Part shown: piece after piece, positions 7,481 to 13,744 of the stretch | Layout of the letters: each line of letters begins with the position of its first letter | Position numbering within the stretch: the stretch's first letter is position 1 | Source: a virus | Lineage: Duplodnaviria > Heunggongvirae > Uroviricota > Caudoviricetes | Direction: 5' to 3' (one strand) | Length of the DNA: 20,837 nucleotides | IMG/VR virus record: IMGVR_UViG_2537562191_000053 | Program-made: the position numbers and the translations under genes | The notes under the pieces: model-generated | What the model saw: only the letters and a program-made list of their open reading frames with translations | Told to the model about the DNA's origin: nothing | Database searches by the model: none

Positions 7481-8114
7481 GTTCACAGATAAAACACTCT
7501 CCAGGAAACCCGGGGCGGTTCAATCAGGGCGATTAACATCGCCTTTTGCTGCTTCATAGCCTGCTTCTCCTTGCCTTTCGGCACGTAAGAGGCTAACCTA
7601 CATGTGCAAAGCATGAAATTGGCCTCAGATTAATGTTAAGCGTCTTGCCGGACGCGTAATGTTAACTGGGGCTTTTCTCTATCTGCCTTTTGGTGTTCAT
7701 GCCTGAGGCAGATAGCCTCAAGCACCCGCAGCAATTCTAACTATCCAATAGATCAATGCCAACTTCTTTTCCTGCAACATCTCTCATCAGAAGTGACCCA
7801 AATTCATCCAATCAGCACAAAAGAAACATTTAAAGCGTGAATGCTACCGAACGTTCATTTCAATTACATCGTTTTGATTTTTAACAGTTTTCACCTCAAC
7901 AAATCAAATGGCATTAGCATTCATCATGGAAGAAAGACTGATAAAAATGATCATTTTCAATGACTTATGATCACACCGGGTATTGCCAAGTCATTCCTTT
8001 TACGCCAGGATACCCACAAGTGAGTAGTCGAGGAGAGTTTGCCAATTTTTGCGATATAAATTTCAATGTCCGAAGAACCATTAATTGTTAATTGATTCTG
8101 TATAAGGTATTAAC

Positions 8115-9212
8115 ATGACAATTTCATATATTCCTATTCTGAAAGCGAAACGTTCTGAGTTATCAGCTTTATCGCAGCTATCCATTGAAAAGAAATCAAA
8201 AATTTTGCCATTACTCGAAATTGAACCAGTGCCAATTGACCCTGATTCAGGTATTGCCTTAAAGAGTTATAACGAGACTCTTATAGAGTTCGGAAAGAAA
8301 GTCTCAAAATCTTGCTCAGATATGCAAGGTGTTTATATTGATGGATTATTAATTGAAGAGCATTTTATTTCTCCTGAAGATCATTACCCTATAATAAATG
8401 CGGTTAATCAAGTTAGAGATATGGAGATAAGAGTTATTCCTGTCAGTTCACCAACTCGCCCATCTAACTATAAAAGAGCGATTGATGAATTAATGCAGAA
8501 TGAAATATGCTTGAGATTAACCACGTTAGATCTGGTTAACCCACAATTAATAACGCATTACATTAATCATCTGGGAATTCCTTTATCAAATATTGATATA
8601 ATTATTGACTTAAGAGATGAGTTAACCGAGGATAAAATTAATTCCGGCGAACTATATACTTTGGCAATGGGATTGATAAACAATCTGGCGCACCTCAATG
8701 AATACAGAAAAGTGATTCTTTCTGGGGGTTCATTTCCTACAGATCTCAGTGATATTTCTGTTGGTCTATATTCTCAACCTCGAATCGAGTGGATTTTATG
8801 GCAGAGTTTAATGAATAGAAAAGAACTTGCCAGAAATGTGATTTATAGTGATTATGGAGTACAGCACCCCGACTTTAATAGGCTTTCGACGCGATTCCCT
8901 AGCGTATCTGCCAGCGTCAGATACTCTGGAGATAATGACTTTTGGGTATTTCGAGGAAGAGTAGCTAATCGCTTTGGTTATGAACAATATGGTAAACATA
9001 GTGAGGATATTCTTGCTCATCGAGAATATTCAGGGCCTACATTCTGTGCGGGAGATAGAGACATAGAATATTATGCAAACGAGTATCAAGCCTACAAAGC
9101 CAATCCCTCTGGTAACTATAAATTTGGTAGCCCAGAGGTATGGCGTAGGATTGGGCAAAACCATCACATAACTAAGGTTGTTGAGCAACTCGCCACTCTT
9201 TACGGGCTTTAA
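8115..9212 (+). CDS. Hypothetical 365-aa protein in AT-rich island; candidate sensor/partner of a two-gene defence-like module (tentatively Beta-protein/sce7725-like, unverified)
   Basis: ATG with AAGGT RBS; codon-dense and strongly AT-rich; N-terminus MTISYIPILKAKRSELSALSQL. No Walker, HNH or methylase motifs seen. Family resemblance is from memory only. Confidence 0.75.
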   Translation: MTISYIPILKAKRSELSALSQLSIEKKSKILPLLEIEPVPIDPDSGIALKSYNETLIEFGKKVSKSCSDMQGVYIDGLLIEEHFISPEDHYPIINAVNQVRDMEIRVIPVSSPTRPSNYKRAIDELMQNEICLRLTTLDLVNPQLITHYINHLGIPLSNIDIIIDLRDELTEDKINSGELYTLAMGLINNLAHLNEYRKVILSGGSFPTDLSDISVGLYSQPRIEWILWQSLMNRKELARNVIYSDYGVQHPDFNRLSTRFPSVSASVRYSGDNDFWVFRGRVANRFGYEQYGKHSEDILAHREYSGPTFCAGDRDIEYYANEYQAYKANPSGNYKFGSPEVWRRIGQNHHITKVVEQLATLYGL

Positions 9213-9750
9213 GTTTAACTCGAACAGCTTCACGAAGCTCGCCAACATCCATACTATTGGCGAGTTTTGACCATAAGACGCGTTTAGGTTTATTTTTCAA
9301 ATTCTGTAGCTCCCCTACATCACTTAATAGGGAAAGCAATTCATCTTTCCAAAGAAGCATTGTTAAGGAAAGTTTGTCCACTTGTGGATTCAACTTGCTA
9401 GTTCGAATTGTTTTTAAATGGATACCTTGCCGTGCACCTTGCGTAACTTGCTTTATCCCCCACCATGATGGAACTATGCTTAAAGCATCATAAAGATGGC
9501 AATCAGAGACAACCAAAGTTACTTTATCCATCACTGATGAGTAATGTTGCACCTGCGCTGGTAATCTGAGCAAGTTATCACTCTTGCTCTTCAACTCATA
9601 ACCATGTATAAGCCCATTGATCACTGCTATATCAGCTCTGCTAGCCCCTAGATTCATCGTAAACTCATCAATGATTAGGGTGTCAGGATCTTTATGATGA
9701 TCTCTCAGAATCTTGGCATGCACAGCCTTTCTTACATCAATGTCTCTCAT
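9172..9750 (-). CDS. PD-(D/E)xK nuclease-fold protein (192 aa); candidate effector of the module (tentatively sce7726-like, unverified)
   Basis: N-terminal region MRDIDVRK...IIDEF...RADIAVINGLIHGYELKS carries the E...D...ExK restriction-endonuclease-like signature. Its 3' end overlaps the convergent 365-aa gene by 41 nt. Weak RBS. Confidence 0.75.
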   Translation of the reverse strand: MRDIDVRKAVHAKILRDHHKDPDTLIIDEFTMNLGASRADIAVINGLIHGYELKSKSDNLLRLPAQVQHYSSVMDKVTLVVSDCHLYDALSIVPSWWGIKQVTQGARQGIHLKTIRTSKLNPQVDKLSLTMLLWKDELLSLLSDVGELQNLKNKPKRVLWSKLANSMDVGELREAVRVKLKARKEWRVAQQP

Positions 9751-9782
9751 ACCATAGTTGCGCTTTCATCGACTCTCTCAAG

Positions 9783-9801
9783 CCATGATTCTATATCATG
9801 G
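9783..9801. promoter_or_regulatory. Palindrome CCATGAT-tctat-ATCATGG, 33-51 nt upstream of the nuclease gene; candidate operator overlapping a TAGAAT -10 element
   Basis: Perfect 7-bp arms read directly; the minus strand reads TGGCAT-N17-TAGAAT around it. Confidence 0.35.
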
Positions 9802-10055
9802 TTCGCATGAATGCCATTTGATATGACCAGTGGTTAAACATTGCACAGAAAAGTGGATGTGTATTTTAACAAAAGCAATGACGGCTAACCATGTTGGTAT
9901 GTCGATAAAATGTTTCAACGTAAGCATTATCTGTTCCGCCCTTTCAGACGGCCTCCTGATGTTCTGAGGGTGCAGAATCCCTCCGGTTAAGGGTTTAATA
10001 AAAATCGTTTCTGATTTAAATCTTCAGTATTTAGTTGTTAGTCGGTTTATAGCCT

Positions 10056-13272: not shown

Positions 13273-13464
13273 ATGAATAGAGCCCTTTCACCAATGGTTT
13301 CTGAATTTGAAACCATTGAACAAGAAAACAGTTACAACGAATGGCTGCGTGCGAAAGTAGCAACGAGCCTTGCAGATCCGCGCCCAGCAATTCCCCATGA
13401 CGAAGTTGAGCGCAGAATGGCAGAACGCTTTGCTAAGATGCGCAAGGAACGGAGCAAGCAGTAA
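13273..13464 (+). CDS. Type II antitoxin (ParD-like), 63 aa
   Basis: ATG with GGAGGA RBS; stop lies 1 nt before the toxin ATG. Confidence 0.65.
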   Translation: MNRALSPMVSEFETIEQENSYNEWLRAKVATSLADPRPAIPHDEVERRMAERFAKMRKERSKQ

Positions 13465-13465
13465 A

Positions 13466-13744
13466 ATGTTACCCGTGTTATGGCTTGAAAGCGCAGATAC
13501 CGACCTAGATGATATAACTAGTTATATTGCTCGTTTCGACATAGATGCGGCTGAACGCTTATGGCAGCGATTAAGGGGTTGTGTGCTGCCGTTATCCGAA
13601 CATCCGTATTTATACCCACCAAGCGACAGAGTACCTGGCTTGCGTGAGATTGTAGCCCACCCTAACTATATAATTCTATACCGCGTAACAACATCAAGCG
13701 TTGAAGTAGTAAACGTGATCCACGCAAGACGCCAGTTTCCCTAA
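13466..13744 (+). CDS. Type II toxin, ParE/RelE family, 92 aa
   Basis: MLPVLWLESADTDLDDITSYIARFDIDAAERLWQRL...REIVAHPNYIILYRV...VVNVIHARRQFP, the characteristic ParE/RelE pattern as I recall it. Confidence 0.75.
   Translation: MLPVLWLESADTDLDDITSYIARFDIDAAERLWQRLRGCVLPLSEHPYLYPPSDRVPGLREIVAHPNYIILYRVTTSSVEVVNVIHARRQFP

What the first reader, a model, noticed from the sequence alone, without database searches (positions are those of the whole stretch)
7740..10055. AT-rich moron island in the nin-region hotspot carrying a candidate two-gene defence/conflict module (365-aa unknown protein + 192-aa PD-(D/E)xK nuclease-like protein)
Seen directly: GC content drops sharply here (8161-8220 is 19/60 GC versus 32/60 at 5401-5460). 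The island sits between the replication genes and the rusA/Q block, where lambdoid phages carry accessory cargo. It holds two long codon-dense ORFs. The 192-aa protein has a clear E...D...ExK signature (IIDEF / RADIAV / GYELKS); the 365-aa partner has no catalytic motif I can recognise. From memory they resemble the co-occurring Beta-protein/sce7725-like and sce7726-like families, and possibly the P4 gop-beta-cII type hotspot system, but I cannot verify this. The arrangement here is convergent with a 3' overlap and no third gene, so it may be an undescribed variant or a new system. A nuclease effector plus a large partner of unknown function fits a toxin/sensor abortive-infection design.
Basis: partly seen in the sequence, partly recalled or inferred. 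Interest (0 to 1): 0.85.

Follow-up and report, generated by a model that had tools for sequence, protein, structure and literature searches.

The report
Gop-less beta/cII defence-type gene pair
An AT-rich insert in an E. coli O111 prophage carries two tail-to-tail overlapping genes, a TIM-barrel "beta" protein and a P4-cII-type nuclease. These genes are the conserved core of two known anti-phage systems, found here without the toxin genes those systems carry.

Summary
The GC counts, both ORFs (8115-9212 +, 365 aa; 9172-9750 -, 192 aa), the 41-bp 3' overlap and the E..D..ExK motif are all as described.

The family guesses were right. The 365-aa protein is Pfam Beta_protein and matches PADLOC PD-Lambda-2_C. 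The 192-aa protein is NCBIfam sce7726, which is Pfam Phage_P4_cII. It has invariant catalytic residues and a predicted PD-(D/E)xK fold. RefSeq and the Rac-SA53 phage record already name both genes this way.

The convergent layout is not a departure. P4's own beta and cII are convergent. All 80 scored pairs (76 of the 80 scan loci, plus P4, a Gordonia phage and two copies of this island), spanning many phyla, are convergent, and 77 overlap, always in one phase. gop, HigB and the Xre-peptidase are absent here, so this is the bare core.

Close relatives sit in the P2 gpA-gpQ defence hotspot, in a primase-bearing island and at a lambdoid Rz-Nu1 junction.

The most likely function is anti-phage defence with the nuclease as effector, but no experiment exists for the two-gene form. 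Verdict: a new variant of a known kind, of moderate interest.

By-product: PD-lambda-2-type loci carry an unlisted fourth, convergent cII-family gene.

The parts
7740..8114 (+). AT-rich non-coding leader upstream of the beta gene, with an AAGG Shine-Dalgarno sequence about 8 nt before the ATG. The left junction of the insert is at 7739/7740.
   Evidence: GC is 0.353 over 7764-8114. Homology to phage vB_EcoS-640R1 ends at 7739. No nucleotide homology to other enterobacterial beta/cII loci lies upstream of 8112. The small ORFs 7841-7963 and 7960-8091 are not conserved. No promoter-like site at 9/12 or better was found on the + strand here. Sequence read.
8115..9212 (+). Beta family protein gene (365 aa, WP_000156210.1). 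Predicted divergent (beta/alpha)8 TIM barrel with a C-terminal helical extension.
9172..9212 (.). 41-bp stretch read on both strands, where the 3' ends of the two genes overlap. It encodes the beta C-terminus (..VVEQLATLYGL*) on + and the cII-like C-terminus (..KARKEWRVAQQP*) on -.
   Evidence: In 77 of 80 homologous pairs the genes overlap by 11-158 bp (median 53), and the overlap length is always 2 mod 3. Independent gene calls agree. The overlap covers conserved residues of both proteins. No terminator-like hairpin is present.
9172..9750 (-). sce7726 / Phage_P4_cII family protein gene (192 aa, WP_001204666.1). Predicted PD-(D/E)xK nuclease domain followed by a helical C-terminal part.
9589..9666 (-). 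Codons of the catalytic signature: E29 (9664-9666), D40 (9631-9633), E52 (9595-9597), K54 (9589-9591).
   Evidence: These residues are invariant in alignments A1 (23 sequences including P4 cII, a Gordonia phage and phage Mx4) and A2 (40 sequences). Coordinates are computed from the ORF start at 9750.
9751..9935 (-). Upstream region of the cII-like gene, with one promoter-like site (9817-9788, ATGGCA-18-TAGAAT). The right junction of the insert is near 9935/9936.
   Evidence: Promoter-like site, where the number of sites is no higher than in shuffles. Homology to the pair-less phage resumes at 9936. In phage Rac-SA53 an IS1 sits in this spacer, 166 bp upstream of the gene.
7523..7739 (-). Flank, not part of the module: the 5' part of the hokD/sok locus, cut by IS1203 (6213-7522).
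   Evidence: Rfam sok at 7552-7727, 119.8 bits. The uninterrupted hokD lies next to beta in strain 2013C-3513. IS arms; 3-bp target duplication seen.

Best explanation
This is prophage accessory cargo: a self-contained two-gene anti-phage (superinfection-exclusion or abortive-infection type) module. It is the conserved core shared by the P4 gop-beta-cII system and the PD-lambda-2 system.

Shown:
- Both genes are intact.
- One is predicted as a TIM barrel, with conserved Asp, Arg and His residues at or just after strand ends, where TIM-barrel active sites normally lie.
- The other has the invariant E-D-ExK residues and a predicted PD-(D/E)xK fold.
- The two genes are inherited as a unit, always tail to tail and nearly always overlapping in one reading phase.
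- The pair travels between known cargo and defence slots of prophages and other mobile islands.

Inferred:
- In the lysogen each gene is transcribed from its own AT-rich flank towards the other. Convergent transcription, or pairing of the complementary mRNA 3' ends, would then tie their levels together.
- The beta protein acts as sensor or controller. It would either bind the nuclease or make or remove a phosphorylated ligand or a DNA feature.
- On infection by another phage (lambda-like or P1-like, by analogy with the validated relatives) the cII-type nuclease cuts DNA and stops the infection.
- gop (a 2-TM toxin) in P4, and HigB plus the Xre-peptidase in PD-lambda-2, are add-on effector or regulator cassettes that this locus lacks.
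For: - Family membership of both proteins.
- P4 cII belongs to the same family, and P4 beta and cII are also convergent.
- gop-beta-cII protects against lambda and P1 (PMC9122126) and kills cells on a phage trigger (bioRxiv 10.1101/2023.04.06.535777).
- Pairing: 76 of 80 loci seeded with sce7726 have a convergent beta gene, and two of the other four are cut by a contig end.
- In the beta-seeded plasmid search, 15 of 19 records have an annotated sce7726 gene overlapping the beta match.
- The two proteins diverge together: Mantel r 0.77, exceeded by 0 of 999 permutations.
- Catalytic residues are invariant, and the fold is predicted with confidence.
- Close relatives with no upstream gene sit in the P2 gpA-gpQ defence hotspot, in a primase-bearing island and at a lambdoid Rz-Nu1 junction.
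- In this window the pair occupies a variable slot with foreign base composition.
- Among enterobacterial copies, nucleotide homology is limited to the two coding sequences.
Against: - No experiment addresses the two-gene form.
- In P4 the demonstrated toxic component is gop, which is absent here.
- The validated PD-lambda-2 clone extends only 396 bp beyond gene C. In PD-lambda-2-type loci the cII start lies 415-607 bp beyond the beta stop. That defence may therefore not need the nuclease, although I could not read the ECOR42 sequence to check.
- No biochemical activity is known for either family, and no solved relative exists by sequence.
- The beta fold matches are generic TIM barrels.
- Promoter-like sites are no more frequent than in shuffled sequence.
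- PADLOC-type rules would not call this locus, because it lacks the partners they require.
Confidence: 0.5

Rival explanations
1. An addiction (toxin-antitoxin-like) module that stabilises the prophage. The cII-type nuclease would be the toxin, the beta protein its neutraliser, and the antisense overlap would set their ratio. No dedicated anti-phage role is implied.
For: P4 beta was described as the antidote to gop (cited in PMC9122126) and as a 'P4 phage antitoxin' (PMC9519451). The pair sits next to another killer locus, hok/sok, and relatives sit next to HicAB. Convergent complementary 3' ends could give RNA-level control.
Against: A 365-aa TIM barrel with about 25 invariant residues looks like an enzyme rather than a typical antitoxin. 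In two loci beta is degraded while the nuclease ORF stays intact (L064, L077), which a lethal unneutralised toxin should not allow. PD-lambda-2C is not needed to neutralise that system's toxin. Many toxin-antitoxin modules also act in defence, so this rival is not exclusive of the main explanation.
Confidence: 0.2
2. A restriction-modification-like pair. The TIM-barrel protein would mark or alter host DNA or nucleotides, as TGT/DpdA-type enzymes do, and the PD-(D/E)xK nuclease would cut unmarked incoming DNA.
Confidence: 0.1
3. Genes that serve the phage's own life cycle (lysogeny decision, replication or recombination) rather than conflict with other phages. This would fit the historical name cII and the position within the early-right region.
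For: The cII-like gene points the same way as the replication and nin genes. Phage Mx4 carries a solitary homologue inside a co-directional gene block. One Gordonia phage record annotates the homologue as 'exonuclease'. P4 cII was named from a plaque phenotype (my own recollection, not checked).
Against: Related lambdoid phages lack the pair at this slot and carry other genes there. Only 93 of 5426 complete E. coli genomes have it. The same pair occurs in several different slots of unrelated prophages and islands, in plasmids, and in chromosomal contexts across many phyla. P4's genes are described as non-essential.
Confidence: 0.1

Closest known systems
P4 gop-beta-cII (P4 hotspot system; Ghisotti 1990, Rousset et al. 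2022)
   Same: It has a Beta_protein-family gene and a cII/sce7726-family gene lying tail to tail. The catalytic E-D-ExK residues are shared with P4 cII. It is carried by a mobile element in an accessory slot.
   Different: There is no gop anywhere in the window. The proteins are distant: P4 cII is 28% identical over 55% of the query, and PADLOC's P4 'beta' model scores only E 1.5e-4. The cII-type protein here is 192 aa, against 264 aa in P4, and lacks P4's C-terminal extension. The genes overlap by 41 bp, where P4 has a 27-bp gap with a terminator. The host element is a lambdoid prophage, not a satellite.
PD-lambda-2 (Vassallo et al. 2022)
   Same: The beta protein matches the PD-Lambda-2_C models best (E 1.4e-40). 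PD-lambda-2-type loci in nature also carry the convergent, overlapping cII-family gene.
   Different: The window has no HigB-like A and no Xre-ImmA/IrrE peptidase B. The published system is defined as three genes without the nuclease.
NCBIfam sce7725 / sce7726 cassette
   Same: The 192-aa protein is a full-length sce7726 member (positions 1-183 of the 184-position model). The N-terminal motif of beta gives a faint match to sce7725 (residues 5-39, E 0.097).
   Different: The partner does not reach the sce7725 cut-off (12.3 bits against 60). It is a beta-family protein instead.
Stand-alone PD-(D/E)xK proteins: PDB 3dnx (SPO1766) and Pfam MmcB-like (PF06319)
   Different: Pfam gives no hit at E 0.1 or better in the local library. 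3dnx has no C-terminal helical part like the one here and no beta partner. That 3dnx belongs to the MmcB-like family, and that the family is linked to DNA repair rather than mobile elements, comes from my own knowledge.

Membership tests
gop-beta-cII (P4) | gop: a small 2-TM toxin gene directly upstream of beta | tested here: not met
   tblastn of P4 gop against the window gives nothing below E 0.04, and nothing near the pair. No same-strand ORF of 50 aa or more lies within 200 bp upstream of beta.
gop-beta-cII (P4) | beta: a Beta_protein (PF14350) family member | tested here: met
   PF14350 E 7.2e-52, 177 bits against a cut-off of 27, covering positions 1-341 of the 342-position model. PADLOC's P4-type 'beta' model scores only E 1.5e-4.
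gop-beta-cII (P4) | cII: a Phage_P4_cII / sce7726 family member | tested here: met
   PADLOC 'cll' E 2.4e-28. NF033832 at 191 bits. tblastn to P4 cII E 1e-5. It aligns with P4 cII and shares the invariant E29, D40, E52 and K54.
gop-beta-cII (P4) | beta and cII transcribed convergently | tested here: met
   P4: beta 651-1718 (+), cII 1746-2540 (-). Window: 8115-9212 (+), 9172-9750 (-).
gop-beta-cII (P4) | Protection against lambda and P1; cell death on a phage trigger | not testable with these tools
   This needs plaque assays. Literature only.
PD-lambda-2 | A: a HigB-like toxin gene | tested here: not met
   phmmer with a PD-Lambda-2_A-type HigB finds nine loci but nothing in the window.
PD-lambda-2 | B: an Xre HTH fused to an ImmA/IrrE peptidase, directly upstream of C | tested here: not met
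   An HMM built from ten PD-Lambda-2_B-type proteins has no hit in the window.
PD-lambda-2 | C: a P4-beta-like protein | tested here: met
   PDLC03983 E 1.4e-40 and PDLC03984 E 7.8e-38, both full length.
sce7725/sce7726 cassette (NCBIfam) | sce7726 family protein above the curated cut-off | tested here: met
   191.1 bits against a cut-off of 70.
sce7725/sce7726 cassette (NCBIfam) | an adjacent sce7725 family protein above the curated cut-off | tested here: not met
   12.3 bits against a cut-off of 60, and only residues 5-39 match.
PD-(D/E)xK nuclease superfamily | A conserved acidic-acidic-ExK signature on the core strands | tested here: met
   E29, D40, E52 and K54 are invariant in 23 and in 40 sequences. 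In the model they lie on strands 25-32, 37-44 and 48-54.
PD-(D/E)xK nuclease superfamily | The restriction-endonuclease-like alpha-beta-beta-beta-alpha-beta fold | tested here: met
PD-(D/E)xK nuclease superfamily | Metal-dependent nuclease activity | not testable with these tools
   This needs purified protein.
TIM-barrel enzymes | The (beta/alpha)8 barrel fold | tested here: met
Type II toxin-antitoxin module | Toxin and antitoxin co-transcribed in one operon | tested here: not met
   The genes are convergent here and in all 80 pairs scored.
Restriction-modification system | A DNA-modifying enzyme partnered with the nuclease | tested here: inconclusive

The most novel reading that the evidence does not exclude
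The tail-to-tail beta/cII pair is an autonomous, widespread and so far unnamed two-gene immune module. In this reading, gop-beta-cII and PD-lambda-2 are derived forms that bolt a membrane toxin, or a HigB/Xre-peptidase cassette, onto it. The fixed-phase 3' overlap, kept across bacterial phyla, would be a working part: an antisense or transcription-collision device that couples a TIM-barrel enzyme to a nuclease. This reading would also mean that PD-lambda-2 has been defined and studied without its fourth gene.
Probability: 0.3. Interest if true: 0.65.

Novelty: new variant of a known kind. Interest (0 to 1): 0.45.

Why it matters
Two experimentally validated E. coli anti-phage systems, gop-beta-cII and PD-lambda-2, contain a beta protein whose role is unknown. 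This locus shows the beta gene and a cII-type nuclease gene standing alone in EHEC prophages. The wider survey shows that this tail-to-tail pair is the constant part, while the toxins are interchangeable. That gives a minimal, clonable 2.2-kb unit for asking three things: what the TIM-barrel protein does, whether the nuclease is the effector, and whether the conserved gene overlap has a regulatory role. It also suggests that current PADLOC and DefenseFinder-style definitions miss the bare pair and omit a gene from PD-lambda-2. The locus itself is not surprising to a specialist, because both families are already named in RefSeq.

Tried and rejected
- A degraded gop or other small gene upstream of beta: no tblastn hit. 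The 40- and 43-aa ORFs at 7841-8091 are not conserved, and homology between enterobacterial copies stops at the start codons.
- A bidirectional terminator or stable hairpin in the overlap: the pattern scan finds none there, and fold z-scores are -1.15 and -1.32.
- Promoter assignment: one 9/12 site lies upstream of the cII-like gene, but the number of sites equals that in shuffled sequence. I do not treat it as evidence.
- A sequence relative of the nuclease with a solved structure: none.
The supplement gives only coordinates, and searches seeded with the Xre-peptidase did not return the E. coli locus.
- Literature on mechanism: nothing on sce7726, sce7725 or PF14350 mechanism.
- Separate clades for PD-lambda-2-type and bare pairs: mean distances do not separate them.
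- The first genome scan and the first structure job failed on input rules and were repeated.
Full report
WHAT IS THERE

The window is a lambdoid (Rac/Qin-like) prophage of enterohaemorrhagic E. coli. Its stretch 7481-10055 is 100% identical to O111:H- strain 11128 and many O111 genomes (query bases 43-2575 also to O26 genomes).

Reading the minus strand, RefSeq annotates the following order: a transcriptional regulator, a YdaT-family protein, an HTH replication protein, a DUF977 protein and two small genes. Then come the sce7726 family protein (-), the beta family protein (+) and hokD (-). After those lie DUF968, RusA, DUF1133, a methyltransferase, tRNAs and the lysis genes.

The GC counts are exact, 19/60 and 32/60. 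The stretch 7764-10055 has GC 0.38, against 0.525 to the left and 0.485 to the right.

The ORFs are 8115-9212 (+, 365 aa) and 9172-9750 (-, 192 aa). They are convergent and share 41 bp.

A related phage without the pair loses homology at exactly 7739/7740 and regains it at 9936. It carries other small genes in between. The insert proper is therefore about 7740-9935, and the slot holds variable cargo.

To the left lies a hok/sok locus (Rfam sok at 7552-7727). It has been split by a 1310-bp IS1203 at 6213-7522. In strains without the IS, hokD abuts the pair.

WHAT THE PROTEINS ARE

The 365-aa protein is a full-length Pfam Beta_protein (PF14350, E 7e-52). It matches PADLOC's PD-Lambda-2_C models (E 1e-40) far better than the P4-type 'beta' model (E 1.5e-4).

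About 25 residues are invariant across 33 homologues. Several polar ones (D76, R134, D165, R223, D246, R269) fall at or just after strand ends in the model, where TIM-barrel active sites lie. This is read from the secondary-structure string, not from coordinates.

The 192-aa protein is a full-length NCBIfam sce7726 member (191 bits, cut-off 70). It matches PADLOC's gop-beta-cII 'cll' model (E 2.4e-28). Its homologues carry Pfam PF26915, whose name is Phage_P4_cII, and RefSeq calls P4's own cII a sce7726 family protein.

E29, D40, E52 and K54 are invariant in alignments that include P4 cII, a Gordonia phage and phage Mx4. So are R38, D58, R62, Q66, E137 and R183.

The sce7726 family has 5,429 cluster representatives at 50% identity (E of 1e-3 or better) among 1.84 billion proteins. 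The best 150 are small proteins of 185-395 aa, most about 190-250 aa.

THE ARRANGEMENT IS THE RULE, NOT THE EXCEPTION

In P4, gop (+) and beta (+) are followed by cII on the opposite strand, so beta and cII are convergent there too.

I scanned one genome per species with sce7726 patterns. This gave 450 confirmed loci, and the best 80 came from many phyla: Proteobacteria, Firmicutes, Actinobacteria, Acidobacteria, Chloroflexi, candidate-phyla radiation lineages and Gastranaerophilales.

I called ORFs in those loci and searched them with beta and sce7726 HMMs. A beta gene lay next to the sce7726 gene in 76 of the 80 scan loci.
- Two of the remaining four loci are cut by a contig end.
- One of the four (Xenorhabdus koppenhoeferi) has kinase-like and PP2C-like genes instead.
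- Separately, phage Mx4, found in the phage search rather than this scan, has a solitary copy.

Adding P4, a Gordonia phage and this window brings the total to 80 scored pairs.
- All 80 are convergent.
- 77 overlap at their 3' ends, by 11-158 bp (median 53).
- Every overlap has a length of 2 mod 3, that is, a single reading-phase relationship.
- Independent gene calls give the same result, with overlaps of 41, 56, 59 and 158 bp.

In the window, the shared 41 bp encode conserved residues of both C-termini.

The converse also holds. A beta-seeded tblastn of plasmids returns 19 records, and 15 of them have an annotated sce7726 gene overlapping the beta match.

The two proteins diverge together: Mantel r is 0.77 over 69 pairs, and no permutation out of 999 reached that value.

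WHAT VARIES IS THE UPSTREAM GENE

Fourteen of the 80 scored pairs have a protein of about 380-425 aa (most about 405-420), an Xre HTH fused to an ImmA/IrrE peptidase, directly upstream of beta. Nine of these also have a HigB-like gene. PADLOC scores representatives of these (tested on L023, L040, L076 and L085) as PD-Lambda-2 A, B and C, with best E-values of 1.6e-41, 6e-159 and 8.5e-46. Natural PD-lambda-2-type loci therefore carry a fourth, convergent cII-family gene that the published three-gene definition omits.

The HigB/Xre-peptidase cassette also occurs alone or in front of unrelated cargo. It behaves as a separable module.

The window and its closest relatives have nothing upstream of beta. 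Between enterobacterial copies, nucleotide homology stops at the two start codons.

WHERE THE BARE PAIR LIVES

Close relatives (64-71% identical) are found in three kinds of place:
- P2-like prophages of Dickeya and Serratia, between the portal gene and replication gene A. Rousset et al. defined this interval as the P2 defence hotspot.
- Islands that carry a large primase gene (Zn-ribbon primase, Toprim and DUF927 domains).
- A second E. coli lineage of the pair, which lies between the Rz lysis gene and terminase Nu1 of lambdoid prophages.

The exact island of this window is present in 93 of 5,426 complete E. coli genomes. It is also in phage Rac-SA53, whose authors annotated the genes as 'beta' and 'CII phage-like protein'.

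HOW IT PROBABLY WORKS

Published work establishes the following:
- gop-beta-cII protects against lambda and P1.
- It causes cell death when a phage gene, orf184, is expressed.
- gop has two transmembrane segments (2 TM) and is reported to be toxic without beta.
- In PD-lambda-2 the beta-like C protein is required for defence but not for neutralising the toxin.

From this and the anatomy, I infer that the beta/cII pair is an autonomous conflict module. The PD-(D/E)xK protein would be the DNA-directed effector. The TIM-barrel protein would be the sensor or controller. The convergent overlap would tie the expression of the two together. I put about 0.5 on a defence role and less on the division of labour.

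Three points count against this reading:
- The two-gene form has never been tested.
- The known toxin, gop, is absent.
- The validated PD-lambda-2 clone ends 396 bp past gene C, whereas the cII start lies 415-607 bp past the beta stop in comparable loci. That defence may therefore not need the nuclease. I could not read the ECOR42 sequence to settle this.

Two loci have a degraded beta gene next to an intact nuclease ORF (L064, L077). This argues weakly against a simple model in which beta neutralises a lethal nuclease.

The rival explanations are an addiction module, a restriction-modification-like pair, and a function in the phage's own life cycle. Each is listed with its evidence in the rivals section.

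COMPARISON AND NOVELTY

The locus meets the beta, cII and convergence features of gop-beta-cII but fails the gop feature. It meets only the C feature of PD-lambda-2. It meets sce7726 but not sce7725. It is best described as the bare core of these systems: a new variant of a known kind, already carrying family names in RefSeq.

No paper in the searchable library discusses the mechanism of sce7725 or sce7726, the bare pair, or the fourth gene of PD-lambda-2.

VERDICT

Interest is moderate (0.45). The locus itself is ordinary for the field. The survey it prompted, however, yields three testable points: a universal fixed-phase gene overlap, an unlisted nuclease gene in PD-lambda-2-type loci, and a minimal 2.2-kb unit for working out what beta proteins do.

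Noticed in passing
L023, L040, L044, L046, L050, L060, L061, L076, L078, L079, L082, L084, L085, L094-L096; plasmid hits H102-H108: PD-lambda-2-type operons (HigB, Xre-ImmA peptidase, beta) are followed by a convergent, 3'-overlapping sce7726/P4-cII-family nuclease gene. This gene is not part of the published three-gene system. The validated ECOR42 clone extends only 396 bp beyond gene C, which would cut such a gene.
   Followed up: partly
L090, L092/L093, L097, L098: The conserved HigB plus Xre-ImmA/IrrE peptidase cassette also occurs alone, or in front of unrelated cargo (AAA_15/AAA_21 ATPase plus DUF4276). It looks like a portable regulator or toxin cassette for different effectors.
   Followed up: partly
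window 6213-7522 and 17051-18360: Two 1310-bp IS1203 (IS3-family) copies, 100% identical and in inverted orientation. The first splits hokD, with a 3-bp target duplication. The second splits the prophage exonuclease gene into 15641-17053 and 18385-19419. Strain 11128 has only the first copy. The inverted copies bracket the immunity and replication region and the beta/cII island, so they could invert it.
   Followed up: partly
L014:6001-7810 (Xenorhabdus koppenhoeferi): Here an sce7726 gene has no beta partner. It is followed on the same strand by a Ser/Thr-kinase-like ORF and a PP2C-phosphatase-like ORF, which may be an alternative partner set.
   Followed up: no
L005:3992-4561 (Myxococcus phage Mx4): A solitary cII-family gene lies inside a co-directional block of small phage genes, with no beta gene within 4 kb.
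   Followed up: no
L064:6512-6841 and L077:2562-3757: The beta gene is truncated (L064) or frameshifted (L077), while the neighbouring sce7726 ORF is intact.
   Followed up: partly
L086-L088 (E. coli lambdoid prophages): A second, distant E. coli lineage of the pair (206-aa cII-type protein, 355-aa beta, 59-bp overlap) sits between the Rz lysis gene and terminase Nu1. This is a different cargo slot from the one in the window.
   Followed up: partly
window 1387-1446 (+), 1448-1656 (-), 14946-14997 (+), 1769-1842 and 1926-1998 (-): Rfam matches above gathering score: AgvB (anti-GcvB sRNA), STnc100, DicF, and two tRNAs (Arg and Ile in the RefSeq record). A RelB/RelE pair lies at about 13273-13744 (+) by transfer from the RefSeq annotation.
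   Followed up: no
L106:3894-4659 (phage Rac-SA53): An IS1 is inserted 166 bp upstream of the cII-like gene in an otherwise 99.5% identical copy of the island. It may cut the gene off from its promoter or from read-through of the early operon.
   Followed up: no
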